IMG/VR virus record: IMGVR_UViG_3300025112_006940
Coordinates: 1-64,000 of that record
Length of the DNA: 64,000 bases
From: a virus
Reading direction: 5' to 3' (one strand)
Positions within the stretch are counted from its first letter, which is position 1; the number at the start of each line of letters is the position of its first letter. Below the pieces are notes generated by a model. The model was not told where the DNA came from and did not search any database. It saw nothing but the letters and a program-made list of their open reading frames with translations. Below, in pieces: positions 1,298 through 39,242 of the stretch. Position numbers and translations under genes: made by a program.

Positions 1298-2510
1298 AAA
1301 ATGGGTTAAACATAGGACTATATTTTTAATGTTAGATGCAAATAAAGCCTATTATGAATTAAAGCAGGGCATGATAACGCCTCTTATGTGCTTTCCTTTG
1401 AGGCTTTACATGCCTTGGTATAGGTATCATTGGAACCCTATTTGGATTCATAGATTGATAACTGAAGTATGTGTACAAATATTTGACACTGCAGAAATAC
1501 AACTTTTTAGAAAAATGCTTATGGATGATCGTAAGTTTTTTTCTAAGATGTGGGATACGACATTAAATTCAAATAAAAAAATTACTCATTATTGTGCGCT
1601 AGCTGCATTGAGTTGCTTAGTAGATGAAAATGAAGAGAACTGGAGGATATTTTCTAAATTAGAAAAATGTTTTCATGGAATGGTTAATGACGGTGCTTAT
1701 CGTGAAGGTACTCATTATGCGATTTTTGTTGTAGAAGAAGTAAAGAAGATTATCCCAATGCTTTTTAATCGTCATGGCAATAGAATCTATAATACACAAT
1801 TATTTGTTGATATTAAAAATGTAGAACAATGGCTAAATAATGTATCATCTAATAATATTATAACACCAATCGGGGATGGTTGGCCAGAAAAAGTAAACAT
1901 ATTACATAAAAAATATGCAGCAATTCCAGAAAAAATAGAATATCAAGATATGACGATTTATGCAAACAAGGATTGGAAGGTTATAGAACATCATCGTCAA
2001 ACTGGATTTACATTACATGAACATGCAGAATTAAATGGTATTCAAGCAGCTTATAAGGGGAAATGGATTTTACCTGGAGATGGAATGCCTTCGTATTCCC
2101 TGAAATGGAATAAGCCTTTTGATTGGTATCGCCCAAGAAATCATTGGATAACTGAGCATTGGTTAGATTTACCATTTTTATGGAGATTTAGAAAAGATTT
2201 GCCAAGAAGAAAGATACAATTTATAGCAGAAAATTTACATATTTTTGATTCAGGTATAAATACAATAAGATTACCAGCCTCAGAAAATATTGATTATGAT
2301 AGAAGGAAAAATTATGAAAATATAAGTTGGATTAATAAGGATTTTATTGTAGAAGTAAATGGCGCAATTTATGGAATAAAAAAATGTAAATCATATATAA
2401 CAACTGCTTATAAAAAACAAAAACAAGTTTCTGTTGTAATAATAACAGGAAAAAATTTACATACAAAATTTATACCCTTAATAGATTTTAATAAAACAAT
2501 GGAGAAATAA
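1272..2510 (+). CDS. possible heparinase II/III-like polysaccharide lyase
   Basis: DGAYREGTHY, PIGDG, HEHAE..GKWILPGDG motif order. Confidence 0.45.
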   Translation: MRLMKMDVKKWVKHRTIFLMLDANKAYYELKQGMITPLMCFPLRLYMPWYRYHWNPIWIHRLITEVCVQIFDTAEIQLFRKMLMDDRKFFSKMWDTTLNSNKKITHYCALAALSCLVDENEENWRIFSKLEKCFHGMVNDGAYREGTHYAIFVVEEVKKIIPMLFNRHGNRIYNTQLFVDIKNVEQWLNNVSSNNIITPIGDGWPEKVNILHKKYAAIPEKIEYQDMTIYANKDWKVIEHHRQTGFTLHEHAELNGIQAAYKGKWILPGDGMPSYSLKWNKPFDWYRPRNHWITEHWLDLPFLWRFRKDLPRRKIQFIAENLHIFDSGINTIRLPASENIDYDRRKNYENISWINKDFIVEVNGAIYGIKKCKSYITTAYKKQKQVSVVIITGKNLHTKFIPLIDFNKTMEK

Positions 2511-2827
2511 TGAATAAGATAATTGCACTTGATTTTGATGGAACTACTTTCAAAAATAACTTTCCAATGATTGGTGCGCCTATATGGGATGTTATTAATA
2601 AGGCAATTATATGTCAAAAATGTGGTGATAAAGTTGTTTTATGGACTTGTAGGACTGATGAATATTTAGATCAGGCAATTGAAGCAGCTAGAGAACATGG
2701 GTTAAAATATGATTATATCATGGAAGATCCTGAATGGTCTAGTAATACATCTAGAAAAATAAATGCTACAATATTTGTCGATGATAAAGCACCTGGCAGC
2801 ATAGAATATTTTCTGAATGAATTTTAG
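2510..2827 (+). CDS. small HAD-superfamily phosphatase
   Basis: IIALDFDGT, LWTCR, K...FVDDK. Confidence 0.85.
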   Translation: MNKIIALDFDGTTFKNNFPMIGAPIWDVINKAIICQKCGDKVVLWTCRTDEYLDQAIEAAREHGLKYDYIMEDPEWSSNTSRKINATIFVDDKAPGSIEYFLNEF

Positions 2828-17950: not shown

Positions 17951-17956
17951 AAATAT

Positions 17957-18036: not shown

Positions 18037-18094
18037 ATTTTTTCAAAGGCTAATAATGACATAATTACTTAAATATTAAACAGGAGAAATAATT

Positions 18095-24785: not shown

Positions 24786-26648
24786 TTGGATATTTCACAA
24801 CAAATTTTATCTGATATTACAGTACATATGAAATATGCTAAATATTTATTAGAACTTAACAGAAGGGAAACATGGGAAGAAATAGTATATCGTAATAAAG
24901 AGATGCACAAAAAAAAGTTTAAGCATTTAGGTTTAGATTTTTTAAAAATGATTGATAACGCTTATGAATTTGTTTATCAAAAAAAGATTTGCCCATCCAT
25001 GAGAAGTATGCAATTTGCTGGAAAACCAATTGAAATTTCTCCAAATAGAGTTTACAATTGTGCCTATCTTCCTATAGATGATTATAGGGCGTTTGGTGAA
25101 ATAATGTTTCTATTATTAGGTGGGACAGGAATTGGCTATTCTGTACAAAAGCATCATGTTGAAAAATTACCAGAAATTAGAAGACCTACAAAAAAACGTA
25201 GATTTTTAATTAGCGATTCAATTGAAGGATGGGCCGATGCAATTAAGGCATTAATGAAAGCTTATTTTTCTGGCAAATCTTTGCCAGTATTTGATTTTTC
25301 TGATATTAGAGTAAAAGGCGCAGCATTGATAACAAGTGGTGGTAAAGCACCTGGGCCAGAACCATTAAAGGATTGTTTGCATAATCTTAAAAAAGTTTTT
25401 GATAGAAAGCATGATGGCAATCAATTATCTACACTTGAAGCTCATGATATGGTATGTTATATTGCCGATGCTGTTCTAGCAGGCGGGATTAGAAGGGCTG
25501 CATTAATATCTTTATTTTCTATGGATGATGAAGAAATGGCAGCATGTAAATTTGGAAATTGGTGGGAAGAAAATCCACAAAGAGGTAGGTCAAATAATTC
25601 TGCATGCATTGCAAGACATAGAATTAAAAAATATGAATTCAAAAATTTATGGAAAAAAATTGAAAAATCTAATGCAGGCGAGCCAGGAATATATTTTACA
25701 AATGATATAGAATGGGGGACAAATCCATGTTGTGAAATTGCGTTAAGGGCATTTCAATTTTGTAATCTTACAGAAATTAATGTATCTAATGTAGAATCAC
25801 AAGAAGACTTAAATGAAAGGGCAGCAGCGGCAGCATTTTTAGGTACATTACAAGCATCATATACAGATTTTCATTACCTTAGAGATATATGGAAAAGAAC
25901 AACTGAAAAAGATGCATTAATTGGCGTTGGAATGACTGGCATAGCAAGTAAGAAAATATTTGATTTTTCTTTAGAGAAAGCTGCCGATATAGTCAAATCT
26001 ACTAATAAAGAAATTTCAAAATTAATAGGTATTAATGAAGCTGCAAGAATGACTTGTATAAAACCATCTGGAACATCATCATTAGTATTGGGTTGTTCTT
26101 CTGGGATACATGCATGGCATAATGATTATTACATAAGAAGAATAAGAGTAGGAAAAAATGAAGCAATTTATTCGTATCTTTCTATTTATCATCCAGAGTT
26201 ATTAGAGGATTGTTTTTTTAAGCCTAAAATAGATGCTGTTATTTCTATCCCGCAAAAGGCACCAGATTATTCAATATATAGAACGGAAAATGCAATTGAT
26301 TTATTAGAAAGAATAAAATATTTTCATGAAAATTGGATTGATTCAGGGCATTCACAAGGAAATAACAGTCATAATGTTTCTGCAACAGTATCTATAAAAA
26401 ATGAAGAATGGGATAACGTTGGTGAATGGATGTGGAAAAATAGAAAGCACTATAATGGTTTAGCATGCTTGCCATTTGATGGAGGTTCATATGTTCAAGC
26501 CCCATTTGAAGATTGCGATAGCATGACTTTTGATAAATTATTTTCAAAATTACATGAAATAGATTTGACAAAAGTAATTGAAATGAATGATAATACAAAT
26601 TTAAAAGGTGAATTAGCTTGTTCTAGCGGTGTTTGCGAAATAGTTTAA
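24786..26648 (+). CDS. nrdJ: class II (adenosylcobalamin) ribonucleotide reductase
   Basis: RRETW, YNC, GGIRRAA, TNPCCEI, KPSGT, C-terminal ACSSGVCEI. Confidence 0.92.
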   Translation: MDISQQILSDITVHMKYAKYLLELNRRETWEEIVYRNKEMHKKKFKHLGLDFLKMIDNAYEFVYQKKICPSMRSMQFAGKPIEISPNRVYNCAYLPIDDYRAFGEIMFLLLGGTGIGYSVQKHHVEKLPEIRRPTKKRRFLISDSIEGWADAIKALMKAYFSGKSLPVFDFSDIRVKGAALITSGGKAPGPEPLKDCLHNLKKVFDRKHDGNQLSTLEAHDMVCYIADAVLAGGIRRAALISLFSMDDEEMAACKFGNWWEENPQRGRSNNSACIARHRIKKYEFKNLWKKIEKSNAGEPGIYFTNDIEWGTNPCCEIALRAFQFCNLTEINVSNVESQEDLNERAAAAAFLGTLQASYTDFHYLRDIWKRTTEKDALIGVGMTGIASKKIFDFSLEKAADIVKSTNKEISKLIGINEAARMTCIKPSGTSSLVLGCSSGIHAWHNDYYIRRIRVGKNEAIYSYLSIYHPELLEDCFFKPKIDAVISIPQKAPDYSIYRTENAIDLLERIKYFHENWIDSGHSQGNNSHNVSATVSIKNEEWDNVGEWMWKNRKHYNGLACLPFDGGSYVQAPFEDCDSMTFDKLFSKLHEIDLTKVIEMNDNTNLKGELACSSGVCEIV

Positions 26649-26689: not shown

Positions 26690-26944
26690 ATGAATGAAAC
26701 AACAATTCGTCGTAGCTACTTAACTCCTAAATTTGATGTTAGGCCAGCTAAAAAAGAAGTAAAAAAACCAGGCTTATTTTTTGAAGATAGGGTAGAAAAT
26801 CTTGCTAAAAAATATAAGACAATTGATGAAATATGGAAACATATGACATTAGGGCAAGTATCACGATATAGTACAATAGGTCCAAAGATTTTTTTAGGAA
26901 CAAAGTTAATTTACGATGAATCAACAGGAGAAACTTTTGTATGA
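26690..26944 (+). CDS. hypothetical protein
   Basis: GAGG RBS, overlaps next start. Confidence 0.65.
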   Translation: MNETTIRRSYLTPKFDVRPAKKEVKKPGLFFEDRVENLAKKYKTIDEIWKHMTLGQVSRYSTIGPKIFLGTKLIYDESTGETFV

Positions 26945-27423
26945 TGACTATCTTAGAGGATTTAGAACAAATTCTAGATTGCTATTGTGATAATAGTAGA
27001 TTAGAATTTGAAGAAGTTTTTATTTTATTTACTAAGATACTTTCATATAGAAGCAGTTGTGCAAAAACAAAACAAGCAGCATTACTTGTTAATAATAACA
27101 GAGTAATTTCAATTGGTGTAAATGGGCCGCCATCTGGTGGAATAAATTGTATAGCAGATGGCGGCGAAGAAGTATGCGGAAAAGATCTTTCAGGTAGTTG
27201 CTTAGAAGGGATTCATGCCGAACAAAATTGTCTTGGATATGCATCAAGATATGGAATAAGAACTGACAATTGTAAATTGTATGTAACAATGACGCCTTGT
27301 ATAAATTGCGCCAAACTTATTATAGCTGCTGGAATTGAAGAATATATTTACATTGATGATTATAGAATAACTGAAGGCATAGATTTTTTAAATAATCATG
27401 GTATTAAAACAAGAAAAATTTAA
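26941..27423 (+). CDS. dCMP deaminase
   Basis: HAEQN, PCINC, GVNG. Confidence 0.92.
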   Translation: MMTILEDLEQILDCYCDNSRLEFEEVFILFTKILSYRSSCAKTKQAALLVNNNRVISIGVNGPPSGGINCIADGGEEVCGKDLSGSCLEGIHAEQNCLGYASRYGIRTDNCKLYVTMTPCINCAKLIIAAGIEEYIYIDDYRITEGIDFLNNHGIKTRKI

Positions 27424-27431
27424 GGAGAGGC

Positions 27432-28463
27432 ATGCCAAGAGAACTTGAGACAATAGAAGATATGTATATAAATTGTATATATAGAGTATTTGGGGGCAAT
27501 AAAATAGATGCTGTTACAGATCCTTCATCAATTACATATGGTAAAGCAAGTAGGGAACGAATAGGATTAAGCTATAAAATAGAAAATCCATTAAGCAGGA
27601 TAATTTTAAACCCAGCTAGAAAATTTAATATATTGCAAGTTATGGGTCATTTTTTATGGATTATGAAAGGTGATAATATTCTAAAAAATGTTAGTTATTA
27701 TAATCCTAAGGCCTCTGCACTTTCAGATGATGGTATAACACATAGAGCTGCATATGGTGAAAGATTGATGTTTTGTAGTAATGGCAATGGTGGAATAAAA
27801 ATTGATCAACTGAAAAATGTTATAACTAGACTGAAAATGGATTTACAATCAAGGAGAGCATTTGCTACTATATATAATCCAGTAATTGATAGCTGTTGTA
27901 TGCAAACAAATGATTTTCCATGTACGATTGGTTATCAATTTTTAATTAGAAATAATAAGCTTGATATGATATGTTTTATGAGATCTCAAAGTGTTTTATT
28001 TGTAATGCCATATGATGTTTTTATAAATACAATGCTTCAAGAATACATGGCAAAAAGATTAGGGGTGGAAATTGGAAATTATTATCATACGGGCGGAAGT
28101 TTTCACTTTTTTGAAAATGAAACTAAGTTTGCAGAAAAAATTATAGAAGCTGATTATATTATTCCTGAAAATTTTTCAATGCCAAAAATGTATGATAATG
28201 TATTAGATGGTTTAAATCATGTATTAGAACATGAAACATTAATCAGGGAATCTGCAGTAGCAGGCTCTTATATTCATCTTCCAGATGATCATGCAGATGA
28301 ATATGGGAAATATTGGGGCGATATTATACGACTCTTAGAAATATATGCTATAGATAAAATAGAAAAAGATATATCTGAACATATAAGAAAAACATATGAA
28401 AGAAAGGTATTGATAAAAAAATTACATCCAACATATCAAGCTGCATTGGAGATTTTAGAATGA
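27432..28463 (+). CDS. thymidylate synthase-superfamily enzyme, likely dCMP-modifying
   Basis: AYGERL, SRRA, DFPCT, MRSQS....PYD (Asp at dUMP-specifying Asn site), SFHFF. Confidence 0.85.
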   Translation: MPRELETIEDMYINCIYRVFGGNKIDAVTDPSSITYGKASRERIGLSYKIENPLSRIILNPARKFNILQVMGHFLWIMKGDNILKNVSYYNPKASALSDDGITHRAAYGERLMFCSNGNGGIKIDQLKNVITRLKMDLQSRRAFATIYNPVIDSCCMQTNDFPCTIGYQFLIRNNKLDMICFMRSQSVLFVMPYDVFINTMLQEYMAKRLGVEIGNYYHTGGSFHFFENETKFAEKIIEADYIIPENFSMPKMYDNVLDGLNHVLEHETLIRESAVAGSYIHLPDDHADEYGKYWGDIIRLLEIYAIDKIEKDISEHIRKTYERKVLIKKLHPTYQAALEILE

Positions 28464-29575
28464 CTCATGAATTAATGGCAGGAAATTTATGGACTTTTGA
28501 CTATCTTGTTGCTTGCAAAAAATTAAATGATGATAATCCAAAAGCTAAAATAGTGGAAATGTATGGATCAATTAAAGGATTAGATCCAATTGGTTCTGCT
28601 AGACCAGATTCAAGATTACCCTTAGTTGCTAAAAAAGATTTTGAAGCATACGTTAGCAAGGCAATTACATATGGAATTGAAATTAATTACACTCTTAATA
28701 TTTCATGTATTGGTGAATTGAGTGAATTAGAAAAAAATGAATTAAAAATTGCAGATTTTTTACGTTATATAGAATTTTATGGTGTAAAAAGAGTTACAGT
28801 AGCACATCCATTGATAGCTCAATTAGTAGCAAAATATACAGATATTGCCGTTGAAATTTCTACAATTATGCATGTTGAAACTATTGGACAATTACAAAAA
28901 TATAAAGAAATGTGCCCTAATGTAGATAAAGTATGCATGAATTTGTATCGCAACAGAGATTTTAAATTTTTAAATCAATTCAAAAAAGAAGCCGATAAAC
29001 TTGGTATCATAACAGAACTTATGGCAAATGAATTTTGTTCAATAGGAGGAATTCCTTGTTATGGACTTTACAGAAACTCATGTTATATGGTCCATTCCCA
29101 TGGCGGAAACGATGAACTCAATTTTGAAGGCTATCCAATTAAAGGCCCTGGTGGATGTATCACTTCAAGAATACAAAGCCCAGCATCTTACCTTAAAGCA
29201 CGTTTTATTCTTCCACAATGGTACGACAAATATTTCAACGAAACGGGGATATCGCATTTTAAGATTACTGGAAGAACTCATTCTATCGAAGATGTATTAC
29301 CCATCGTTAAGTCCTATTCTAAGGGTACTTTTAATGGCAACTTAATGGATTTATGGTTGCTAGATAAAGATCATGCTGATTTAAATATTGATTCAAGTTT
29401 ATTAAAAGATTTTATAGATCATTGGATTGAAAATGCAGATTTTCCATGTGATAAAATGTGTGGAATAAATTGTCAAATATGTGATGATGCATTTAAAGAA
29501 ATCTGCCCAGATATTCCATTGTATCGCCCAAAACTTATTCATAGCATTGATGAAAAAATAGGAATTGAAAAATGA
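28460..29575 (+). CDS. peptidase U32-family Fe-S protein
   Basis: INYTLN, EISTI, ELMANEFC..C..C, FKITGR, C-terminal Cys cluster. Confidence 0.8.
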   Translation: MTHELMAGNLWTFDYLVACKKLNDDNPKAKIVEMYGSIKGLDPIGSARPDSRLPLVAKKDFEAYVSKAITYGIEINYTLNISCIGELSELEKNELKIADFLRYIEFYGVKRVTVAHPLIAQLVAKYTDIAVEISTIMHVETIGQLQKYKEMCPNVDKVCMNLYRNRDFKFLNQFKKEADKLGIITELMANEFCSIGGIPCYGLYRNSCYMVHSHGGNDELNFEGYPIKGPGGCITSRIQSPASYLKARFILPQWYDKYFNETGISHFKITGRTHSIEDVLPIVKSYSKGTFNGNLMDLWLLDKDHADLNIDSSLLKDFIDHWIENADFPCDKMCGINCQICDDAFKEICPDIPLYRPKLIHSIDEKIGIEK

Positions 29576-30624
29576 ATGTTTTGATAATTCAACAATACAG
29601 TATGAGGTCTTATGAAAACAATGAATATCTATTTGATAAAGATGGACATTCAGATACAATGCTTTCATTGATCAAAGGTGTTGATAAAGAAGATTACAAT
29701 TTCACAATTGTTGTTCCTGATAATGTAAGAGGTGGATTAAAGGCCGTAAAAAAATATATAGATTTTTGGAAAATAAAAAGTAATGTAATGATTCTATGTA
29801 AAAAATTTGGTATTAACATTGATGAAGAAAGATCAGATTTTGATAGACAATATTGGAAAAATGTTATTGAAGAAAACAATGTAGATTTAGTAATTAATAT
29901 GAATGATGTTATTGCCCCAAATCTTGCAACGTTAAGAAGGTATTGCAGTAAAACATTTAAGATTTATACAATACTTGATCATATGCCATTTTATAAACAT
30001 TCATGGCAACATCCTAATCATGGAAAAATTCACAGAATACTGGAATCAATTGATGTATCAGATAGGGTATTTACATACTTCGAACATACGCAATCAATAT
30101 TAAGTTATCTATCAAAAAGAGAAATAAGCCTAATTCCAGCATTTTCAACTGAATTTTTAAATAAATTTGCAATGAGAGATTTAACAAATTATTCAGAATT
30201 GCATGAACTTATAGATGAAAAACATGAAAAAACATTATTGGCATCAAGATTAACTGATAAAACAAAATATACACCTGAAGCAATTAAGCAACATTGTAAC
30301 GCACGTAGCACTGATTTATTGATTTGTAATCCAAATGAATTAAACGAAAAATTTATAGATGATGCATTTAAAGATGCTGAATTCCCAAAATTAAAAACAA
30401 AAAATGATTTTTTAAAACTGCTTTCAAAATCTATGTATATGATTAATACAATAGATCCAGAAGTAATTTTATCTTCATCATCATTGCAGGCAATTTATTA
30501 TGCATGCGAATTAGAACCGTTTAGAAGATATGATAGAGATTATTTGATGATTAAACAGTTTAAATTTATTAACAACTATTCAATAGAATATACACCAACA
30601 AAATTAAGGAGGTTATATTCATGA
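29572..30624 (+). CDS. putative GT-B glycosyltransferase
   Basis: MNVLII N-terminal Rossmann strand, LASRLTD, SSLQAI; operon context. Confidence 0.5.
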   Translation: MNVLIIQQYSMRSYENNEYLFDKDGHSDTMLSLIKGVDKEDYNFTIVVPDNVRGGLKAVKKYIDFWKIKSNVMILCKKFGINIDEERSDFDRQYWKNVIEENNVDLVINMNDVIAPNLATLRRYCSKTFKIYTILDHMPFYKHSWQHPNHGKIHRILESIDVSDRVFTYFEHTQSILSYLSKREISLIPAFSTEFLNKFAMRDLTNYSELHELIDEKHEKTLLASRLTDKTKYTPEAIKQHCNARSTDLLICNPNELNEKFIDDAFKDAEFPKLKTKNDFLKLLSKSMYMINTIDPEVILSSSSLQAIYYACELEPFRRYDRDYLMIKQFKFINNYSIEYTPTKLRRLYS

Positions 30625-31160
30625 TGCCAATGATAGTACTTGAAGGTCCTGATTTTGCAGGAAAAAGTTTTTATGCAAAAAAATTAATGAAGTATTTGAG
30701 AAAACACTATAGACTTTTAGAAAGTAATATAACAAAAGAACTTGAAATACCTAAAAAAGAATTCAATAAAACAATTCAGCTTATAGGACATCATAGCTAT
30801 ATCATATTAAGAGAATTACAAGATTCCCCCATAATTGCAATAAGGTTAGCGGTTTCTGATATAGTTTATTCAAACGTATTTAAAAGAAATCAAGATTTAA
30901 GTTGGATAAATTTAAAAAGAGATTTTCCAGATGCAAAATTTATTCATTTGACTACTTCATGTTTTGATGTAATTAAAAAACGTCGTAAAAATAGAGAGGA
31001 TTATACAAACGAAGAAGAAAATTTTGAAATATATAAAGAATATTATCTTGCTTTTCCAAAACTTGGCATTGATTATTTAGAGCTAAATAATGATAGCTTT
31101 AAAAATACTGAAAGAAATATAGGGCAAATAATTAATTTTGTATTTTCGGAGGGATTATGA
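30621..31160 (+). CDS. nucleoside monophosphate kinase (Tmk-like)
   Basis: IVLEGPDFAGKS, R..VSDIVYS. Confidence 0.8.
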   Translation: MMPMIVLEGPDFAGKSFYAKKLMKYLRKHYRLLESNITKELEIPKKEFNKTIQLIGHHSYIILRELQDSPIIAIRLAVSDIVYSNVFKRNQDLSWINLKRDFPDAKFIHLTTSCFDVIKKRRKNREDYTNEEENFEIYKEYYLAFPKLGIDYLELNNDSFKNTERNIGQIINFVFSEGL

Positions 31161-34100
31161 GTCAAATTGAAACATATACCCATCTTCATTGCCATTCATC
31201 TGGTTCATTAATGGATGGTGTTGCAAAACCTGCTGATAATGCTAAACGTGCTGCAGAATTAGGAATGCAAGCAATTGCATTAACAGATCATGGAACTCTT
31301 GCAGGATTATTTGAATTTCAAAAAACATGCGAAGAAGTTGGGGTTAAGCCTATACTTGGCAATGAAATGTATATTGTAGATGATATGAATTCAGGCCCTA
31401 TTTCAGATGAAGAAAGAGAAACATTATCAAGAGAACAAAGAAAAGAATTACAAAGAACTAGAATGAGAACTTCTCATGTAATTTTATTAGCAGAAAATCA
31501 AAAAGGGCTTGAAAATCTTTATACATTGAATTATTATGCTAATAAAAATGGTTATTATTATCGTCCAAGAATTGATCTAAATTTACTTAGGGATCATCAT
31601 GAAGGATTAATTGCAACAACTACTTGTGTTGCATCTAAAATAGCAAGATATTTTTTTAATGGAGATGAAAATTTAGCAATTAGGCATTTTGAAGATATGT
31701 TAGATTTATTTGGCGAAGATAAGTATTTCATAGAAATGCATCCTCATGAAATTGATATGCAGCTTAATTATAACAGATTTTTAATTGATAAAATTAAATC
31801 AAAATACAAAGATGTTAAATGTATATTGGCAAATGATTCTCATTATGCAAGACCTAACGATAATGAAGCACATAAATTTTTGTTAAGCATTACAACAGAT
31901 GATATGGTTCCTGGCTGTAAAAATTTGTATGTAGCATCCGAAGAAGACATGAGAAAATTTTGGCATGAAAATAATCATGGTAAATACATAGATGAAAAAT
32001 ATTTGAATGAAGCTATTGAAACAACAAAAGAAATTGCTACAAGATGTAATGCACGTATTGATATGGAATCATTAAAAGAGCCTGAATTTACATTGCCAGA
32101 AGGATGGGAGGGACATGACAATAAACATTACATGGGCCATATTTTGCAAAATGCCCTTAGGGATAAAAGAGATAAGGGGTTAATACCAGAAGATAGAGTT
32201 GACGAATATCTTGAACGTCTTAAATATGAATTTAATATAATTGCAGATAAAGGCTATATAGATTACTTTCTTATAGTAATGGATTTTATAAAATGGGCTA
32301 AAGATAATGACATTCTAGTTGGGCCTGGACGAGGTTCTGCTGCTGGATCATTATTATCATGGCTATTGGAAATAATTGAAGTAGATCCAATAAAATATGA
32401 ATTATCATTTGATAGATTTTTAAATCCGTTGAGAAATAAGGCACCGGATATTGATACAGATATTGAAAAATACAGAAGAGAAGAAGTAAGGGATTATATT
32501 GCTAATAAATGGGGTGAAGCAAATATAGCACCAATTGGGGCATATGCAAGATATTCAGCAAATAGTTTATTTAGGGAGGTATGCAAAAATCTTGAATACG
32601 ATTTTTCAGATGTAAATAAAGTTGCTAAAAATATAGATTCTTCAGGTGATGAATATAGGTCATTAAAAACATTTAAAGAAAATGTAAATGAAAAGTCAGT
32701 AATAAAGGCATTCATGGACAAAATTCCAAAAGAAGAAGCTGAACAAATATATAGCTTAGTTGGTGCTATTGAAGGTAATTATAGAAATTTAAGTGTTGCT
32801 GCAGCTGGAACTATTATTTCGTCTAGACCGCTTTATGAAATTGTGCCTTTAAGGAAAACAAAAGATGATACAATCATAACTGAATGGGACGGCAGGGATC
32901 TTACAGATGCTAAGTATCTTAAAATTGATATGCTTGGAATTGCTACATTATCAATTGTTAAAAATGTAATGGATAGAGTTGGTATGACTATCAGAGAATT
33001 ATATGATATGCCTTTATACATTGAAGATGTTAAAGATCCAGAAGAAAAGAAGATCTATGAAAAATGTTATGAAGAATTTAGAAAAGGTCATACAGAGGCA
33101 ATATTTCAATTTGAATCAGGTGGAATTACTGAGTTAATGAAAAACATTTCTCCAGATTCTATAAATGATATATCTGCTACAAATGCATTATACAGACCTG
33201 GTCCGTTAGCTACAGGCGCAGCAAGTAACTTCTATAAAAGAAAGAACAAAAAGACTGATGTTTTTAAGAATGAATTTCATCCTACATTGTTTGATAACGT
33301 ATTAAAGGAAACATATGGTCTTATAGTTTATGAAGAACAAATTACTGAAATGTTTAATTTATTAGGGCTTGATTATGGCGATGCAGATATATTGAGAAGA
33401 GGTATGGAAGAACATGACCAAGAAAAAACACAGCATTATCTTGACAAATTATTAGCAAAGCCAGAATCAGAATTACCATTTAGCAAGGCTGAAGTTAAAC
33501 AAACATTTGAAAATATTCAAAGACATGAAGGCTATGCATTTAATAAATCTCATTCATTATCATATGCGATTGTTGCTTTTTGGACAATGTACATGAAAGT
33601 GAAATACAAAAAAGAATTTTGCGAAGAGGTTTTAAATGACCATATTAATGATGATGGAAAATTACCAATGTATATTAACATGACATTAAATTGTTTTCCA
33701 GATTTGAAGTTAAGCATGGGTGATATTAACATGTTTTCAGATAAGTTTGTTATTGAAGATGGTCAACTTAAATTTGCATTAAATACTACAAAAGGTATTG
33801 GAAAAGCCTTAATTAAGAAATTGCTTAAGATGAAAAATGATGGTAAGGTTTGGGAAAATTTTCAAGATTTCTTTATGAATAGCAAAATTTCTGTTAACAA
33901 CATCATTAATTTGGTAAAAATAGGAATATTTGATAATACTGATTTTGGTAATGGTAGAAATTATAATAGAAAAACATTAGTTGATATTATTGAGTTTTTA
34001 GAAATAATAAGAAGCGCAAAAGTAAAGGAAAAAAAGCCATTTTTTGAAAAACTTGGCATAGATAACATTGAAGGTATGTTTAATCATGATATCATAAAAA

Positions 34101-34531
34101 AATATATGTCTAATATTGGTGGAAATATAGATCAAAAAGATTACAGTGCAAGGGATCTTGCAATAATTGAAAATGATCTCATTGGCTTTAGATTAACTGG
34201 CGATAGTGATGAATTTATACAGGCTATAACTTCTGCAGGAGTTATGGCATGTGGTAACTGGAAATCTAAATTGGAACCTGTATGGGGCAAAATAACAAAT
34301 GTGGATATGAAAAAGACAAAAAGAGGGCAACCATATGCAGTGGCAAAAATAACAGATAATGAAACATCTATAAGCTTAAAATTATGGTCTAATCAACTTA
34401 AAAAATATGGTGGGATGCTTATCAATGGAAATGTAATTGTAGTAAATCTTTCAAAAGATAGGTTTGGTTATGCATTAGTAAATGCAAAGCATGAAGATAC
34501 AATGTTTGATGAATTTTCTATGACAACATAA
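31157..34531 (+). CDS. dnaE: DNA polymerase III alpha subunit
   Basis: HLHCHS, LTDHG, GRGSAAGS, PDIDTD, KIDMLG, YAFNKSH. Confidence 0.96.
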   Translation: MSQIETYTHLHCHSSGSLMDGVAKPADNAKRAAELGMQAIALTDHGTLAGLFEFQKTCEEVGVKPILGNEMYIVDDMNSGPISDEERETLSREQRKELQRTRMRTSHVILLAENQKGLENLYTLNYYANKNGYYYRPRIDLNLLRDHHEGLIATTTCVASKIARYFFNGDENLAIRHFEDMLDLFGEDKYFIEMHPHEIDMQLNYNRFLIDKIKSKYKDVKCILANDSHYARPNDNEAHKFLLSITTDDMVPGCKNLYVASEEDMRKFWHENNHGKYIDEKYLNEAIETTKEIATRCNARIDMESLKEPEFTLPEGWEGHDNKHYMGHILQNALRDKRDKGLIPEDRVDEYLERLKYEFNIIADKGYIDYFLIVMDFIKWAKDNDILVGPGRGSAAGSLLSWLLEIIEVDPIKYELSFDRFLNPLRNKAPDIDTDIEKYRREEVRDYIANKWGEANIAPIGAYARYSANSLFREVCKNLEYDFSDVNKVAKNIDSSGDEYRSLKTFKENVNEKSVIKAFMDKIPKEEAEQIYSLVGAIEGNYRNLSVAAAGTIISSRPLYEIVPLRKTKDDTIITEWDGRDLTDAKYLKIDMLGIATLSIVKNVMDRVGMTIRELYDMPLYIEDVKDPEEKKIYEKCYEEFRKGHTEAIFQFESGGITELMKNISPDSINDISATNALYRPGPLATGAASNFYKRKNKKTDVFKNEFHPTLFDNVLKETYGLIVYEEQITEMFNLLGLDYGDADILRRGMEEHDQEKTQHYLDKLLAKPESELPFSKAEVKQTFENIQRHEGYAFNKSHSLSYAIVAFWTMYMKVKYKKEFCEEVLNDHINDDGKLPMYINMTLNCFPDLKLSMGDINMFSDKFVIEDGQLKFALNTTKGIGKALIKKLLKMKNDGKVWENFQDFFMNSKISVNNIINLVKIGIFDNTDFGNGRNYNRKTLVDIIEFLEIIRSAKVKEKKPFFEKLGIDNIEGMFNHDIIKKYMSNIGGNIDQKDYSARDLAIIENDLIGFRLTGDSDEFIQAITSAGVMACGNWKSKLEPVWGKITNVDMKKTKRGQPYAVAKITDNETSISLKLWSNQLKKYGGMLINGNVIVVNLSKDRFGYALVNAKHEDTMFDEFSMTT

Positions 34532-34547
34532 GGGGAAGAATAACAAA

Positions 34548-34934
34548 ATGGATAGACTTGAGCAAATGTTTGAACAACAAAAATATCTACAAGAATATCT
34601 TGCAAGATATAAACCAGACGCAGCTTGTATTCCTGGTGCAGATGAAGAGGAAAAGTTTAAAAATATGATTTTATTGCTTATAAAAGAATGTACAGAAGTT
34701 TTAGATGAGATTAATTTTAAACCGCATAAATTATCTAAGATTAAGGTAAATAAAGATAAAATAGCAGAAGAGTTAGTAGATGTATTAAAATATTGGATGA
34801 ATCTTGCATTATTAACAGGGTTAGATACTGATGATATATATGCCATGTTTATAAAAAAATCATCGATAGTTTTAGAAAGATTCAAAGAGGAATTAAAAAA
34901 TGCTAAAAAAGGACACGGCCAAGTTAACAATTAA
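34548..34934 (+). CDS. all-alpha dNTP pyrophosphatase (dimeric dUTPase/dCTPase-like)
   Basis: MFEQQ, ECTEVLDEINFKPH, EELVDVLKY. Confidence 0.82.
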   Translation: MDRLEQMFEQQKYLQEYLARYKPDAACIPGADEEEKFKNMILLLIKECTEVLDEINFKPHKLSKIKVNKDKIAEELVDVLKYWMNLALLTGLDTDDIYAMFIKKSSIVLERFKEELKNAKKGHGQVNN

Positions 34935-35442
34935 TGAAATTGAAGGAAGTAAGAAAGGAATGCTTGCAACAAAGATCGTTTATAATACAATTATAGAAAA
35001 TCATTTTAAAATATGGTTCATATGCAATTCTCCAGGAAATAGATTATTTTACATAACTATTAACGATGGCGTTGGAGGCACAGTAGCATTTACAGATTAC
35101 AATATAGCATTTTCGGCGTTAAATAATAATCTATTTAAACCAGCGCTTTTAAAAGCATTTGGATCAGAAATAATATTATCAAGATTATCGCTTTTCTATG
35201 TTAAAGAAATGCTTAACGAAAATAATGTTGCATTTTTAGGAACAATTTTGGTTAACCCTACTAGAGAATTTTTTACGCCAATATCATTACATTTTTTTAG
35301 TAAATTAGATTCTCTTAAGGTAAATGAATATGAAATTGATTTAGATTTAGAAGGCGGCGACTATGTAGCATTAAAATATGATAAAGAAACTATGAGTTAT
35401 TTATCACAGGAAAATGATGATTATCTAGATTTATTAGTATGA
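34900..35442 (+). CDS. hypothetical protein
   Basis: ORF track, GAGG RBS. Confidence 0.7.
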   Translation: MLKKDTAKLTINEIEGSKKGMLATKIVYNTIIENHFKIWFICNSPGNRLFYITINDGVGGTVAFTDYNIAFSALNNNLFKPALLKAFGSEIILSRLSLFYVKEMLNENNVAFLGTILVNPTREFFTPISLHFFSKLDSLKVNEYEIDLDLEGGDYVALKYDKETMSYLSQENDDYLDLLV

Positions 35443-37922: not shown

Positions 37923-38621
37923 ATGAGCAATGTTTTTTTGAAAATTCATCCGCTTGATAGAAATAACAAACCTATTAAAACACACTGTTTTGATATGGAA
38001 AATAACATGTTTGTAAAGGTAAACCAAAGGGCTACAAAAAATATTCCAAATAAAAAGTACTTTACAAGAGATGAAAAAATTGGAAAATTTAAAGTCCTAA
38101 GGGCAAGAAATGAATTTAAAGAAACATTGATGGAAGAATTTCAAAGGGATCATAGGAATCTTAAAAGACGAAAAATCGAAACGCATTTATTATTTTCAGA
38201 TAAGACAGTACTTGTCCTATCTCAACCGCATAAATACATATATAAAAGTCAAAGACCAATTAAGCATAAATTTGCATTTGATGTATTAAATAATGAATTT
38301 ATTTTAATTTCAAATGAAACTTGGAAAAATGAAGGATTACATAAGTTTGGCAGAGGTTTTTTAGTTAGAAAAGAAAATGGTAAGTGGAAAAAAATTATGC
38401 CTATTTCTGAAGGCAAATTTACTAAAGAATTAGATGAAATACAACTTCAGGGTATTCATGATATTGTAGGAGAAAATTTACTTTTATGGATATCTAAATC
38501 TAAGTATGATAATATGTGCAATAGGTGCAAGAAAACATGCAAACAACCTAAGCTTACTGAATTAATGTTTTGTAAAACATTTGACGCTATTAAATCAAGA
38601 AAGAAAAGGGCTGTTAAATGA
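37923..38621 (+). CDS. hypothetical protein with C-terminal CxxCxxxC..C
   Basis: CNRCKKTCKQ..MFC. Confidence 0.7.
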   Translation: MSNVFLKIHPLDRNNKPIKTHCFDMENNMFVKVNQRATKNIPNKKYFTRDEKIGKFKVLRARNEFKETLMEEFQRDHRNLKRRKIETHLLFSDKTVLVLSQPHKYIYKSQRPIKHKFAFDVLNNEFILISNETWKNEGLHKFGRGFLVRKENGKWKKIMPISEGKFTKELDEIQLQGIHDIVGENLLLWISKSKYDNMCNRCKKTCKQPKLTELMFCKTFDAIKSRKKRAVK

Positions 38622-39241: not shown

Positions 39242-39242
39242 T

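What the first reader, a model, noticed from the sequence alone, without database searches (positions are those of the whole stretch)
26941..34934. Candidate cytosine hydroxylation/glycosylation DNA-modification operon coupled to a DnaE replicase
Seen: a tightly coupled run (mostly ATGA overlaps): dCMP deaminase - TS-fold enzyme - U32 Fe-S protein - putative glycosyltransferase - NMP kinase - DnaE - all-alpha dNTP pyrophosphatase. The TS homolog keeps the catalytic Cys (DFPC) but has Asp at the position where Asn specifies dUMP (PYD vs PFN) and Ser in place of the conserved Asp of RSxD (RSQS). Known: Asp at that site marks dCMP-specific enzymes such as T4 gp42; U32 proteins (TrhP, RlhA, UbiU/V) do O2-independent C5 hydroxylation; TS+U32+kinase+sugar transferase clusters make glycosylated hydroxycytosine in some T-even-like phages that use family B polymerases. 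Inference: synthesis of 5-hydroxy-dCTP, removal of dCTP, incorporation by a family C polymerase and glycosylation by a divergent transferase; the sugar is unknown and the deaminase could shunt to 5-hydroxy-dU.
Basis: partly seen in the sequence, partly recalled or inferred. Interest (0 to 1): 0.85.

Follow-up and report, generated by a model that had tools for sequence, protein, structure and literature searches.

The report
Phage sugar-coated hydroxycytosine DNA operon
A large uncultured phage carries, fused to its DnaE-type DNA polymerase gene, a variant of the recently published gene kit that replaces cytosine in phage DNA by sugar-decorated 5-hydroxycytosine. The kit includes a highly conserved iron-sulfur-type "U32" enzyme whose role nobody has yet shown.

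Summary
Nine + strand genes run from 26690 to 35442, with five 4-base ATGA overlaps.

They encode:
- a dCMP deaminase
- a thymidylate-synthase (TS) homologue
- a U32 protein
- a GT-B glycosyltransferase
- a TMPK-like kinase
- DnaE
- a MazG-type pyrophosphatase

The TS, U32, transferase and kinase belong to the same four families as RB69 gp48, gp50, gp46:47 and gp45. Those genes form the published glycosyl-5-hydroxycytosine (5hoC) system (Lee et al., NAR 2026, PMC13326640).

In that system the TS homologue itself is the O2/flavin-dependent 5-hydroxy-dCMP (5hodCMP) synthase. The U32 protein has no tested role.

The window's TS has the 5hoC-type active site (C146, D143, Q168, V173, D177, F209). 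However, it has Ser, not the published diagnostic Asn, at position 169. It is also a long, MilA-like form.

Its nearest relatives carry Asn169. Other Ser169 enzymes sit next to the same transferase family in two further phage lineages.

The same TS-U32-transferase-DnaE-MazG order recurs in other IMG/VR phages. Many U32+transferase+kinase loci show no TS homologue within 8 kb.

Verdict: this is a new variant of a known kind, probably in a Bacteroidota-type phage. The sugar is unknown. Earlier notes from this scan raised the oxygen-independent U32 idea on other DNA.

The parts
24786..26648 (+). Class II (B12-type) ribonucleotide reductase. Upstream dNTP-supply gene, given as context.
   Evidence: PF02867 plus the RNR-II insertion domain; phrog_367, 4.9e-118.
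26690..26944 (+). 84-aa ORF of unknown function, translationally coupled (ATGA) to the deaminase gene.
   Evidence: No family hit. It is 46% identical to an ORF two genes upstream of the TS gene in relative L020.
26941..27423 (+). dCMP deaminase with zinc motifs HAE and PCxxC.
   Evidence: PF00383, 4e-16; phrog_174, 1e-36. A deaminase recurs beside U32, kinase and DnaE in L033 and L075, and is fused to the kinase in L023.
27432..28463 (+). Long-form (343 aa) thymidylate-synthase homologue. Probable dCMP C5-hydroxylase (5hodCMP-synthase-like) with Ser at ThyA position 169.
   Evidence: PF00303, 1e-19. Signature D143 C146 T147 Q168 S169 V173 D177 F209. It lies on the N/S169+V173 side of a 99/98-supported split. 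Nearest relatives P0002 and P0003 carry N169. The best solved relative by sequence is MilA.
28460..29575 (+). U32-family TIM-barrel protein of the RB69 gp50 subfamily, with eight conserved cysteines. Role unproven; candidate Fe-S, O2-independent hydroxylase.
   Evidence: PF01136, 25.6 bits; phrog_5757, 2.7e-64. 36% identity to RB69-type gp50 and 37% to Thanatos TH2_068. AF2 pLDDT 91, top PDB hit 5d88, a U32 structure. hhalign to E. coli RlhA gives probability 93.8%. Cys159/193/208/233 and 330/334/338/341 are conserved in 69-73 of 73 sequences.
29572..30624 (+). Divergent GT-B glycosyltransferase of the base-proximal 'GT1' family (RB69 gp46:47, DLP3 gp79, RL38J1 gp215 type).
   Evidence: AF2 pLDDT 82, pTM 0.85. 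Foldseek hits are GT-B enzymes at E 2e-10, including MshA 3c4q and the phage HY126 transferase 9ir0. Shared motifs are SMRSY, R-L/I-T/S-D-x-x-Y and (D/N)PN. BLASTP to RL2RES_097 gives 6e-8. phrog_3891 matches the N-terminus at 7.5e-8.
30621..31160 (+). TMPK-like P-loop nucleotide kinase (RB69 gp45 / DLP3 gp78 family). Its stop overlaps the DnaE start.
   Evidence: phrog_761 at 3e-12, the same family as JS09 gp45 and DLP3 gp78. Pfam Thymidylate_kin scores 24.3 bits, below the cut-off of 27.
31157..34531 (+). DnaE-type (family C) DNA polymerase alpha subunit.
   Evidence: PHP 1.4e-41, DNA_pol3_alpha 1.1e-74, finger 2.3e-32, HHH_6 3.9e-9. 42% identity to the DnaE in the syntenic locus L020.
34548..34934 (+). 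All-alpha MazG/dimeric-dUTPase-type NTP pyrophosphatase. Inferred dCTPase; specificity unknown.
   Evidence: PF08761 at 36 bits and PF03819 at 27.7 bits, both over cut-off. 52% identity to the gene after DnaE in L020. Only marginal similarity to T4 gp56 (E 0.04).
34900..35442 (+). 180-aa ORF of unknown function, conserved downstream of MazG.
   Evidence: No family hit. 35% identical to the ORF that follows MazG in L020.
2510..2827 (+). Small HAD-type phosphatase of the same PHROG as RB69 gp51 / DLP3 gp81 (AfhF-type sugar-bisphosphate phosphatase). Its link to this pathway is uncertain.
   Evidence: phrog_1238 at 2.7e-19. JS09 gp51 and DLP3 gp81 hit the same PHROG at 1.6e-42 and 3.2e-38. No pairwise BLAST similarity.

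Best explanation
This is a phage DNA-hypermodification module of the glycosylated 5-hydroxycytosine (5hoC) kind, built into the replication operon of a DnaE-type phage.

Proposed flow (no step is shown experimentally for this phage):
1. The MazG-type pyrophosphatase turns dCTP into dCMP. This keeps plain C out of phage DNA and feeds the pathway.
2. The TS homologue binds dCMP (Asp at position 177) and hydroxylates C5 to give 5hodCMP. It is expected to use a flavin and O2 rather than folate, because the folate-binding Asp169 is lost (Ser) and Gly173 is Val, as in verified 5hodCMP synthases.
3. The TMPK-like kinase, with host NDP kinase, raises the product to the triphosphate.
4. DnaE incorporates it in place of dCTP.
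5. The divergent GT-B transferase attaches the first sugar to the 5-hydroxyl, either on DNA or possibly at the nucleotide stage. The sugar donor is unknown and may come from the host.
6. The dCMP deaminase diverts part of the dCMP to dUMP for dTTP, as the cd gene does in T4. This suits a genome that is 70% A+T.

The U32 protein is an integral and the best-conserved member of the module. Its role is open. My preferred guess is a second, O2-independent C5 hydroxylase.
For: Published system. In RB69 and DLP3 the TS homologue makes 5hodCMP (in vivo assay, 18O2 label, FMN). The gene set is gp45 kinase, gp46:47 transferase, gp48 TS and gp50 U32. RL38J1 has the TS-transferase-kinase triad (PMC13326640).

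Family identity, tested here:
- U32 = phrog_5757 at 2.7e-64. All 222 phage-database records with a match are from T-even-like phages, and the record inspected (JS09) is RB69ORF050c inside the arabinose cluster.
- The kinase is phrog_761, the same as JS09 gp45 and DLP3 gp78.
- The transferase has a GT-B fold and three motifs invariant with RL2RES_097, JS09 gp46:47 and DLP3 gp79.

TS active site. The window reads D143/C146/Q168/S169/V173/D177/F209. Verified 5hoC enzymes read E/C/Q(E)/N/V/D/F(Y). Folate-type enzymes (ThyA, T4 gp42, SP10, ViI-like, phage G, MilA) all have D169+G173.

Tree. A 99/98-supported split puts the window with the N/S169 enzymes.

Nearest relatives. P0002 (54% identity) and P0003 (45%) carry N169.

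Ser169 elsewhere. Ser169 enzymes sit beside GT1 in L017, with a UDP-galactopyranose mutase, and in L020-22.

Synteny. The order TS-U32-(P-loop)-GT1-DnaE-MazG is conserved in L020-22.
Against: - The one published diagnostic residue (D169N) is not met; the window has Ser. No Ser169 enzyme has been assayed.
- By overall sequence the TS homologue is closer to MilA, a folate-dependent CMP hydroxymethylase (E 8e-36), than to the HY126 5hodCMP synthase (E 4.5e-13). It is about 100 aa longer than the verified enzymes.
- In the tree it is not inside the verified clade; it lies in an unresolved set beside it.
- The transferase matches phrog_3891 only over its first 56 residues.
- No sugar-nucleotide gene, second transferase or T4-type dNMP kinase lies in the 76.5 kb held. 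The record is only 41% complete, so this is weak evidence.
- MazG specificity is unknown.
- There are no chemical data on this phage's DNA.
Confidence: 0.7

Rival explanations
1. U32 is the hydroxylase, either alone or as a second route. Like RlhA, TrhP and UbiU/V, it would hydroxylate pyrimidine C5 without O2, probably with prephenate as the oxygen donor. It would give 5hoC where the O2-dependent TS homologue cannot work. In this phage the two enzymes would form an aerobic/anaerobic pair.
For: - U32 is the best-conserved protein of the module: 66% identity to L020, against 42-43% for DnaE and TS.
- Eight cysteines are conserved in 69-73 of 73 homologues.
- The closest E. coli paralogue by profile is RlhA, the 23S rRNA 5-hydroxycytidine synthase (probability 93.8%). 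Window Cys208-Tyr209 aligns with RlhA Cys176-Tyr.
- Of 29 dereplicated IMG/VR U32 loci with at least 6 kb on both sides, 20 hold GT1 and 19 the kinase, but only 10 hold a TS homologue. Twelve have GT1 without TS, four of them next to DnaE.
- No Acinetobacter or Rhizobium phage is listed among the genera with a U32 match, although 63 and 22 of their records match the TS query. U32 is present in phages of Enterobacterales and Shewanella.
- Published chemistry of U32 proteins: PMC5727448, PMC6599085, PMC10990095.
Against: - No experiment links any phage U32 to a base. Lee et al. list gp50 only as 'sugar or heterocycle reductase'.
- Only one of the conserved cysteines aligns with a cysteine of RlhA. 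Profile matches to UbiU and UbiV are insignificant.
- No chorismate mutase or DAHP synthase lies in the held record.
- 'No TS' means none within 8 kb. The host-lifestyle pattern rests on three or four lineages, and the aerobic or anaerobic habits are from my own knowledge.
Confidence: 0.35
2. A T4-like 5-hydroxymethylcytosine system. The TS homologue would be a folate-dependent dCMP hydroxymethylase, as in T4 gp42 or MilA, and the transferase would glycosylate hmC.
For: Asp177 and an acidic residue at position 143 are shared with T4 gp42 and MilA. MilA is the best solved-structure match by sequence, E 8e-36 over residues 35-305. Phage G, another DnaE phage, has a D169/D177 TS homologue with a deaminase two genes upstream and an alpha-glucosyltransferase gene about 3 kb upstream.
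Against: All folate-type enzymes examined keep Asp169 and Gly173; the window has Ser and Val. The window lies on the other side of the 99/98 split. Its transferase, kinase and U32 belong to families known only from 5hoC systems.
Confidence: 0.1
3. A uracil/thymine-side modification. The deaminase makes dUMP, which is hydroxylated or hydroxymethylated (5hoU or 5hmU) and then glycosylated.
For: The deaminase is translationally linked just upstream of the TS gene. The top phage-database hits of the TS homologue include the SP-10 dUMP hydroxymethylase and ViI-like enzymes. A kinase-deaminase fusion sits next to U32 and GT1 in L023. TrhP, a U32 protein, makes 5-hydroxyuridine in tRNA (PMC6599085).
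Against: dUMP-specific enzymes (SP10, ViI-like, Molly, ThyA) all keep Asn177; the window has Asp, the dCMP switch (PMC13326640). In T4 a dCMP deaminase co-exists with cytosine modification purely to supply dTTP (my own knowledge).
Confidence: 0.08
4. Ordinary nucleotide metabolism. The genes would be deaminase, thymidylate synthase, thymidylate kinase and dUTPase making dTTP for a replicase, with an unrelated 'peptidase' and an orphan gene between them.
For: Automatic annotation names them so. The record holds no intact ThyA or ThyX.
Against: The TS homologue lacks Asn177, Asp169, Leu143, His147 and Tyr209 of true ThyA. All NCBIfam TS models score far below cut-off. The orphan gene is a GT-B transferase. 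All four middle genes match the 5hoC kit.
Confidence: 0.03

Closest known systems
Arabinosyl-5-hydroxycytosine system of Straboviridae (RB69 gp45-gp55 plus gp3; DLP3 gp76-83; HY126 Afh genes; Thanatos). Lee et al., NAR 2026 (PMC13326640); Mahler et al. 2025 and He et al., as cited there.
   Same: It has the same four protein families: a TS homologue with Asp177, an acidic residue at 143, Gln168 and Val173; a U32 protein (gp50 family, 36-37% identity); the base-proximal GT-B transferase family; and the TMPK-like kinase (phrog_761). An all-alpha NTP pyrophosphatase and a dCMP deaminase are also encoded. The genes are clustered beside the polymerase gene.
   Different: - The polymerase is DnaE (family C), not T4-type family B.
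- The TS homologue is a 343-aa long form with Ser169 instead of Asn169, and Asp rather than Glu at 143.
- The gene order is TS-U32-GT-kinase.
- No arabinose-5-phosphate isomerase, AfhE-type kinase/uridylyltransferase or second transferase lies in the 76.5 kb held.
- The transferase is so divergent that only 8 relatives appear among 1.84 billion representatives.
- TerL places the phage nearest Flavobacterium phage 'immuto' (44% identity), not the T-even phages.
Hexosyl-5-hydroxycytosine system of Pootjesviridae (Rhizobium phage RL38J1 gp214-216; RL2RES_096-098).
   Same: The TS homologue, GT1 and kinase are adjacent in the same relative order. The window's transferase gives its best pairwise match to RL2RES_097 (29% over 101 aa, E 6e-8). 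Like RL38J1 gp215, it hits UDP-GlcNAc 2-epimerase folds first (Table 1 of PMC13326640).
   Different: Pootjesviridae have no U32 near the cluster. Their TS is short with Asn169. Their kinase is a different PHROG (phrog_37904).
E. coli RlhA (23S rRNA 5-hydroxycytidine-2501 synthase) and the other U32 hydroxylases TrhP and UbiU/UbiV.
   Same: The U32 TIM-barrel domain is shared. The profile match to RlhA residues 46-260 has probability 93.8%, with a shared C-Y-x-x-H motif. These enzymes hydroxylate C5 of pyrimidines or a quinone ring without O2 (PMC5727448, PMC6599085, PMC10990095).
   Different: The phage protein is a single 371-aa domain with its own C-terminal CX3CX3CX2C motif. It lacks the C-terminal domains of RlhA. 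Most conserved cysteines do not align. No activity is known.
T4 glucosyl-hydroxymethylcytosine pathway (gp42, gp1, gp56, cd, alpha/beta-gt) and Bacillus phage G (gp313, gp317, gp319, DnaE).
   Same: The logic is the same: remove dCTP, modify dCMP with a TS homologue carrying Asp177, phosphorylate, polymerise, glycosylate, and deaminate dCMP for dTTP. Phage G shows the hmC version in a DnaE phage.
   Different: Those enzymes keep Asp169/Gly173 and use folate. Their transferases are unrelated families.

Membership tests
[quoted passage not shown] | TS fold with the catalytic Cys146 | tested here: met
   PF00303, 1e-19. Cys aligns with C146 in the DFPC motif.
[quoted passage not shown] | Asp at ThyA position 177 (dCMP specificity) and an acidic residue at position 143 | tested here: met
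   D177 and D143. Verified enzymes have D177 and E143.
[quoted passage not shown] | Asn at position 169 (D169N), the published diagnostic residue | tested here: not met
   The window has Ser169. The Asp is lost, as in the family, but Asn is not present. Nearest relatives P0002 and P0003 have Asn; P0005, P0006, L017 and L020-22 have Ser.
[quoted passage not shown] | Gly173 replaced by Val/Leu, and Gln/Glu at 168. This co-variation was seen here and is not a published criterion. | tested here: met
   All 5 verified-type rows and the window have V173. All 11 D169 rows have G173.
[quoted passage not shown] | Groups with verified enzymes in a tree | tested here: inconclusive
   The window is on the same side of a 99/98 split as the verified clade, but lies in an unresolved set outside it.
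[quoted passage not shown] | Makes 5-hydroxy-dCMP from dCMP with O2; binds flavin | not testable with these tools
   This needs the in vivo LC-MS assay of PMC13326640.
Base-proximal 5hoC glycosyltransferase 'GT1' (phrog_3891; RB69 gp46:47, DLP3 gp79, RL38J1 gp215) | GT-B fold | tested here: met
   AF2 pLDDT 82, pTM 0.85, with two Rossmann-like halves. Foldseek finds at least 500 PDB hits at E<=1e-3. Those listed are GT-B glycosyltransferases and UDP-GlcNAc 2-epimerases, including 3c4q and the HY126 transferase 9ir0.
Base-proximal 5hoC glycosyltransferase 'GT1' (phrog_3891; RB69 gp46:47, DLP3 gp79, RL38J1 gp215) | Sequence membership in phrog_3891 | tested here: inconclusive
   Only residues 1-56 match (E 7.5e-8), whereas JS09, DLP3, RL2RES and L017 proteins match full length. 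A four-way alignment shows 26 invariant columns across the whole length, including SMRSY, R..D..Y and PN.
Base-proximal 5hoC glycosyltransferase 'GT1' (phrog_3891; RB69 gp46:47, DLP3 gp79, RL38J1 gp215) | Encoded next to the TS homologue and the kinase | tested here: met
   The window order is TS-U32-GT-kinase. The comparable orders are TS-GT-kinase in DLP3, Thanatos, RL2RES and JS09.
Base-proximal 5hoC glycosyltransferase 'GT1' (phrog_3891; RB69 gp46:47, DLP3 gp79, RL38J1 gp215) | Transfers a sugar to 5hoC | not testable with these tools
   This is not shown in vitro even for the published members.
U32 family (PF01136), RB69 gp50 subfamily | Pfam and PHROG profile match | tested here: met
   PF01136 scores 25.6 bits against a cut-off of 22.4, matching only the first 64 profile positions. 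phrog_5757 scores 2.7e-64 over residues 18-346.
U32 family (PF01136), RB69 gp50 subfamily | U32 TIM-barrel fold | tested here: met
   AF2 pLDDT 91, pTM 0.92. The top PDB hit is the U32 protein Mk0906 (5d88, E 1.5e-7), the same hit Lee et al. report for gp50.
U32 family (PF01136), RB69 gp50 subfamily | Four cysteines that bind a 4Fe-4S cluster, as in UbiU/UbiV (my own knowledge of that work) | tested here: inconclusive
   Cys159, 193, 208 and 233 plus four C-terminal Cys are conserved. Only Cys208 aligns with an RlhA cysteine. No coordinates were available to measure distances.
U32 family (PF01136), RB69 gp50 subfamily | O2-independent, prephenate-dependent hydroxylase activity | not testable with these tools
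   This needs anaerobic expression and labelling.
TMPK-like kinase of 5hoC clusters (phrog_761) | P-loop and profile match shared with RB69 gp45 and DLP3 gp78 | tested here: met
   GPDFAGKS P-loop. phrog_761 scores 3e-12, against 7.9e-45 for JS09 gp45 and 5.1e-31 for DLP3 gp78.
Bona fide thymidylate kinase (PF02223 / TIGR00041) | Score over the curated cut-off | tested here: not met
   PF02223 scores 24.3 against 27. TIGR00041 scores 25.1 against 83.
DnaE (DNA polymerase III alpha, family C) | PHP, pol3-alpha NTPase, finger and HhH domains in order | tested here: met
   All four score over cut-off. phrog_405 scores 6.9e-247.
All-alpha NTP pyrophosphatase (MazG / dimeric dUTPase) | Profile match over cut-off | tested here: met
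   PF08761 scores 36 against 22.9. PF03819 scores 27.7 against 22. dCTP specificity was not testable.

The most novel reading that the evidence does not exclude
The phage U32 protein is an oxygen-independent, Fe-S, prephenate-type C5 hydroxylase of deoxycytidylate or of DNA cytosine. It would be the first U32 enzyme acting on DNA precursors. This phage would then carry two non-homologous routes to 5-hydroxycytosine: the flavin/O2 TS homologue and U32. That would mirror the TrhO/TrhP and UbiIHF/UbiUV aerobic/anaerobic pairs. In the many DnaE phages with kinase-GT1-U32 and no TS homologue nearby, U32 would be the only route. A further possibility is that the conserved GT1+kinase pair adds the first sugar at the nucleotide stage, so that DnaE polymerises an already glycosylated dNTP.
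Probability: 0.35. Interest if true: 0.8.

Novelty: new variant of a known kind. Interest (0 to 1): 0.58.

Why it matters
Glycosylated 5-hydroxycytosine was described only in 2025-26, and only in phages with family B polymerases (T-even-like phages and Pootjesviridae).

This locus and its IMG/VR relatives matter for three reasons:
- They extend the system to a lineage of large, AT-rich DnaE phages. There the modification genes are translationally fused to the replicase, so a family C polymerase must accept the modified nucleotide.
- They show that the published D169N signature is too narrow. Ser169 enzymes recur in three lineages in the same gene context, so signature-based surveys will miss them.
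- The comparative data make U32 the most conserved member of the module and one of its most constant partners. It is frequently present without the oxygen-requiring enzyme. This gives a testable hypothesis for how phages in oxygen-poor habitats make this base.

Such DNA resists many restriction enzymes and CRISPR nucleases. The system is therefore relevant to phage-host arms races and to sequencing or cloning of environmental phage DNA.

Tried and rejected
The contigs of the closest relatives (P0002/P0023 at 94,764 bp; P0003/P0024/P0014 at 77,828 bp) could not be read.
- Both metagenome-contig scans found no relative. Three viral-contig scans also found none.
- The word-based protein search found no homologue of the transferase, nor did tblastn against phage genomes. 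Only the exhaustive HMMER search gave 8 relatives.
- Direct PDB sequence searches of U32 and MazG gave nothing.
- Promoter and terminator scans were no better than shuffles.
- hhalign of the phage U32 profile against UbiU and UbiV was insignificant.
- The HAD gene at 2510-2827 has no pairwise similarity to RB69 gp51, though it shares a PHROG with it. The 412-aa ORF before it is unrelated to AfhE.
- The held record has no hit for ThyX, SIS, NTP_transferase, Glycos_transf_1, chorismate mutase or DAHP synthase. The record is 41% complete, so this is weak evidence.
- I considered and rejected an intron-split thyA at 2967-3104. No Rfam intron and no 5' TS exon occur anywhere in the record.

Full report
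**What is there**

The window is the first 64 kb of a 76.5-kb IMG/VR virus record. CheckV rates the record 41% complete, which implies a genome of roughly 190 kb. Its G+C is about 30% and all long ORFs lie on the + strand. It carries 22 tRNA genes.

The large terminase is closest to Flavobacterium phage 'immuto' (44% identity) and Microcystis phage Mel-JY01.

Between 26690 and 35442 nine genes follow one another. There are five 4-base ATGA overlaps and two gaps of 8 and 16 nt. The genes are:
- an 84-aa ORF
- dCMP deaminase
- a 343-aa thymidylate-synthase (TS) homologue
- a 371-aa U32 protein
- a 350-aa protein with no Pfam hit
- a 179-aa TMPK-like kinase
- a 1124-aa DnaE
- a 128-aa MazG/dimeric-dUTPase-type pyrophosphatase
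- a 180-aa ORF

A class II ribonucleotide reductase lies just upstream.

**The known system it resembles**

tblastn of the U32 protein against 50,697 phage records hits 222 records. All are T-even-like phages, at about 36% identity over more than 88% of the length.

In Escherichia phage JS09 the hit is RB69ORF050c. It sits in a block with:
- arabinose-5-phosphate isomerase
- ORF052c and ORF051c
- a 238-aa TS homologue (gp48)
- a 299-aa protein (gp46:47)
- a 'thymidylate kinase' (gp45)

Lee et al. (NAR 2026, PMC13326640) showed several things about this block:
- RB69 and Acinetobacter phage DLP3 replace all cytosine by arabinosylated 5-hydroxycytosine (5hoC).
- The TS homologue itself makes 5-hydroxy-dCMP. 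The evidence is an in vivo assay, incorporation of 18O from O2, and bound FMN.
- These enzymes carry N177D, L143E and a diagnostic D169N.
- Rhizobium phage RL38J1 uses the same TS-transferase-kinase triad to make hexosylated 5hoC.

In that paper the U32 protein gp50 appears only in a table, as 'sugar or heterocycle reductase'. The authors could not tell whether the first sugar is added to the mononucleotide or to DNA. The base-proximal transferases were inactive alone on 5hoC DNA in vitro.

The hydroxylase of record, however, is the TS homologue, not U32.

**The TS homologue**

I aligned the window protein with E. coli ThyA, T4 gp42, the SP-10 dUMP hydroxymethylase, a ViI-like enzyme, phage G gp319 and Maribacter phage Molly gp103. 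I also included four 5hoC-type enzymes (JS09, DLP3, Thanatos-2, RL2RES) and metagenomic relatives.

| Enzyme group | Positions 143 / 146 / 168 / 169 / 173 / 177 / 209 |
|---|---|
| Folate-type enzymes, including MilA | all keep Asp169 and Gly173 |
| 5hoC-type enzymes | E / C / Q(E) / N / V / D / F(Y) |
| Window | D / C / Q / S / V / D / F |

The window therefore shares the dCMP switch (D177), the loss of the folate-binding Asp169, the Gly173-to-Val change and Gln168. The difference is Ser in place of Asn at 169.

Its closest relatives, P0002 (54% identity) and P0003 (45%), have Asn169. P0005 and P0006 have Ser.

In a maximum-likelihood tree, a branch with 99/98 support separates all Asp169/Gly173 rows from all Asn/Ser169 rows. 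The window groups with P0002 and P0003 at 99/98. It sits beside, not inside, the clade of verified-type enzymes.

A Ser169 enzyme from a PolA phage contig (L017) is nested in that clade at 81/76 support. It is followed directly by a GT1 homologue and a UDP-galactopyranose mutase.

One caution applies. The window enzyme is a long form with a C-terminal helical extension. By overall sequence it is nearer MilA, a folate-dependent CMP hydroxymethylase (E 8e-36), than the HY126 5hodCMP synthase (E 4.5e-13).

I therefore read it as a probable 5hodCMP-synthase-like enzyme. It fails the single published diagnostic residue, and it has not been assayed.

**The 350-aa protein**

It has no Pfam hit and no tblastn hit in phage genomes. 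An exhaustive HMMER search of 1.84 billion representatives gave only eight relatives.

With those as the alignment, AlphaFold2 gives pLDDT 82 and pTM 0.85, with two Rossmann-like halves. Foldseek returns GT-B enzymes at E down to 2e-10. They include UDP-GlcNAc 2-epimerases, plant UGTs, MshA (3c4q), BshA and the phage HY126 transferase 9ir0. UDP-GlcNAc 2-epimerase and MshA are also the top hits that Lee et al. list for RL38J1 gp215 and RB69 gp46:47.

Its N-terminus matches RL2RES_097 at E 6e-8. A four-way alignment with RL2RES_097, JS09 gp46:47 and DLP3 gp79 has 26 invariant columns spread over the full length. These include SMRSY, R-L/I-T/S-D-x-x-Y and (D/N)PN.

Those three proteins and the L017 protein are all phrog_3891. 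The window protein matches that profile only at its N-terminus. It is a very divergent member of the base-proximal transferase family.

**Kinase, pyrophosphatase, deaminase and polymerase**

- The kinase has a P-loop and belongs to phrog_761, like JS09 gp45 and DLP3 gp78. It scores below the curated cut-offs for true thymidylate kinase.
- The pyrophosphatase passes the Pfam cut-offs for dUTPase_2 and MazG. Its similarity to T4 gp56 is marginal, so dCTP specificity is an inference from the pathway logic.
- The deaminase is a standard dCMP deaminase.
- DnaE has all four domains.

**U32**

The family alignment of 73 sequences has 61 columns at 90% conservation or better. These include Cys159, 193, 208 and 233, and a C-terminal CX3CX3CX2C motif at 330/334/338/341.

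The AF2 model has pLDDT 91. Its best PDB hit is the U32 structure 5d88.

A profile comparison gives 93.8% probability to E. coli RlhA, the 23S rRNA 5-hydroxycytidine synthase. Cys208-Tyr209 aligns with RlhA Cys176-Tyr. UbiU and UbiV give nothing significant.

**Comparative context**

A scan of IMG/VR with the U32 alignment returned 58 loci. I searched their ORFs with HMMs built here.

Three near-identical contigs come from three metagenome datasets (L020-22; G+C 31%). They carry, in order: SAM methyltransferase, TS (339 aa, Ser169), U32, a 195-aa P-loop protein, GT1, a UDG-like protein, DnaE and MazG.

| Window protein | Identity to L020 |
|---|---|
| U32 | 66% |
| MazG | 52% |
| TS | 43% |
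| DnaE | 42% |
| GT1 | detectable only by HMM |

U32 is thus the most conserved and the transferase the fastest-evolving part.

L075 has TS (Asn169), U32, deaminase, kinase and DnaE.

Several other DnaE phages have kinase-GT1-U32-DnaE, with or without MazG, and no TS homologue within 8 kb. These are L023-25, L027, L028, L033, L049 and L068. L023 has a kinase-deaminase fusion.

Among 29 dereplicated loci with at least 6 kb on each side, the counts are:

| Partner of U32 | Loci (of 29) |
|---|---|
| GT1 | 20 |
| Kinase | 19 |
| AfhE-like enzyme | 14 |
| TS homologue | 10 |

Twelve of the 29 have GT1 without TS. In cultured phages, U32 is present in 5hoC phages of Enterobacterales and Shewanella (Thanatos TH2_068, 37% identity). 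It is absent near the clusters of DLP3 and RL2RES. No Acinetobacter or Rhizobium phage is listed among the genera with a U32 match, although 63 and 22 of their records match the TS query.

From my own knowledge, Acinetobacter and Rhizobium are obligate aerobes, and Enterobacterales and Shewanella are facultative anaerobes.

**How it most likely works**

Confidence in this account is 0.7. Every step is inferred for this phage.
1. MazG removes dCTP and yields dCMP.
2. The TS homologue hydroxylates dCMP at C5, using flavin and O2.
3. The kinase and host NDP kinase make the triphosphate.
4. DnaE incorporates it.
5. The GT-B enzyme attaches an unknown sugar to the 5-hydroxyl.
6. The deaminase feeds dTTP synthesis.

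U32 is part of the module, but its role is open. The best-supported guess (0.35) is an O2-independent second route to the same hydroxylated base. Four observations fit this: its kinship to RlhA, its conservation, its frequent occurrence with GT1 and kinase but without the O2-dependent enzyme, and its host distribution.

This guess is not supported by any experiment. The cysteine mapping is only partial, and the lineages are few.

**Rivals**

- A folate-dependent hmC pathway (0.1) is disfavoured by the loss of Asp169 and Gly173.
- A uracil-side pathway (0.08) is disfavoured by Asp177.
- Plain dTTP synthesis (0.03) is disfavoured by the loss of five ThyA active-site residues and by the GT-B gene.

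**Limits**

- The record holds no ThyX, no intact ThyA, no sugar-nucleotide genes, no second transferase and no prephenate-supply genes. However, 59% of the genome is missing.
The closest relatives' contigs and the habitat therefore remain unseen.

**Earlier notes of this scan**

Earlier notes had already proposed, on other genomes, that phage U32 proteins are oxygen-independent hydroxylases in TS-less gut and rumen phages. I treated this as a lead. The IMG/VR tally here is my own test of the co-occurrence part only.

**Novelty**

The kind of system is published. Four things are new here:
- its occurrence in DnaE phages, translationally coupled to the replicase
- a long-form TS homologue with Ser169, which escapes the published D169N signature yet keeps the same gene context in three lineages
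- an extremely divergent first transferase with no sugar pathway nearby
- quantitative context evidence that places U32 at the core of the module

I rate it a new variant of a known kind, with interest 0.58.

Noticed in passing
window 2967-3104 (+): A 46-residue C-terminal remnant of a canonical ThyA (PF00303 positions 221-266, E 1e-9, ending ...KGLKMDVSV*). It has no start codon and no N-terminal part anywhere in the 76.5-kb record. It looks like a decayed thyA. No Rfam intron lies nearby.
   Followed up: partly
window 54302-59057 (+): A complete prkA (PrkA AAA plus C-terminal domain), yeaH-like DUF444 and spoVR triad is encoded by the phage. All three score far above the Pfam cut-offs.
   Followed up: no
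window 39195-40043 (+): A metallo-beta-lactamase-fold protein matches the anti-Pycsar protein Apyc1 (PF23023, 92 bits). It is probably a cyclic-nucleotide-degrading counter-defence gene. An HD-domain protein lies just upstream (38618-39241).
   Followed up: no
window 8913-18863 and 41055-41129 (+): There are 22 tRNA genes over the Rfam gathering score. Most lie in a 10-kb array interspersed with small ORFs.
   Followed up: no
window 3690-5357 (+): A Ro60/TROVE-domain RNA-binding protein (PF05731; phrog_850, 2.6e-38). Another first-reader note reports Y-RNA-like elements around it.
   Followed up: no
window 40036-41055 and 43445-46612 (+): An RNA ligase (PF09414 plus an OB fold), and a 1055-aa fusion of an Mre11-type phosphoesterase with a Rad50/SbcC-type ATPase.
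   Followed up: no
window 19165-20136 (+): A radical SAM protein (PF04055, 4e-12) of unknown role lies between the tRNA array and the replication genes.
   Followed up: no
L023 7027-7971 (IMGVR_UViG_3300022227_000028): A single 314-aa ORF matches both the TMPK-like kinase and the dCMP deaminase profiles, so it is a fusion. It sits between MazG and U32 in a DnaE phage with no TS homologue within 8 kb. This hints that deaminase and kinase work in one pathway.
   Followed up: partly
L020 10896-11501 and 6157-6957 (IMGVR_UViG_3300017703_000903): In the closest syntenic relative, a 201-aa protein that by eye resembles a family-4 uracil-DNA glycosylase sits between GT1 and DnaE. A 266-aa protein that by eye resembles a SAM methyltransferase replaces the deaminase upstream of the TS gene. 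Neither was checked against profiles.
   Followed up: no
L005 2198-6957 (Maribacter phage Molly_1, MT732451.1): A TS homologue with the dUMP-type signature (D143, D169, G173, N177) directly follows a 'beta glucosyl transferase', a UDP-glucose dehydrogenase and an epimerase/dehydratase. This suggests a glycosylated 5-hydroxymethyluracil in a Bacteroidota phage.
   Followed up: no
L004 1299-7035 and 11786-12960 (Bacillus phage G, JN638751.1): Phage G gp319 has the T4 gp42-type signature (D143, D169, G173, D177). A dCMP deaminase (gp317) lies two genes upstream, an alpha-glucosyltransferase gene (gp313) about 3 kb upstream, and DnaE about 5 kb downstream. This is an hmC-type counterpart in a DnaE phage.
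   Followed up: no
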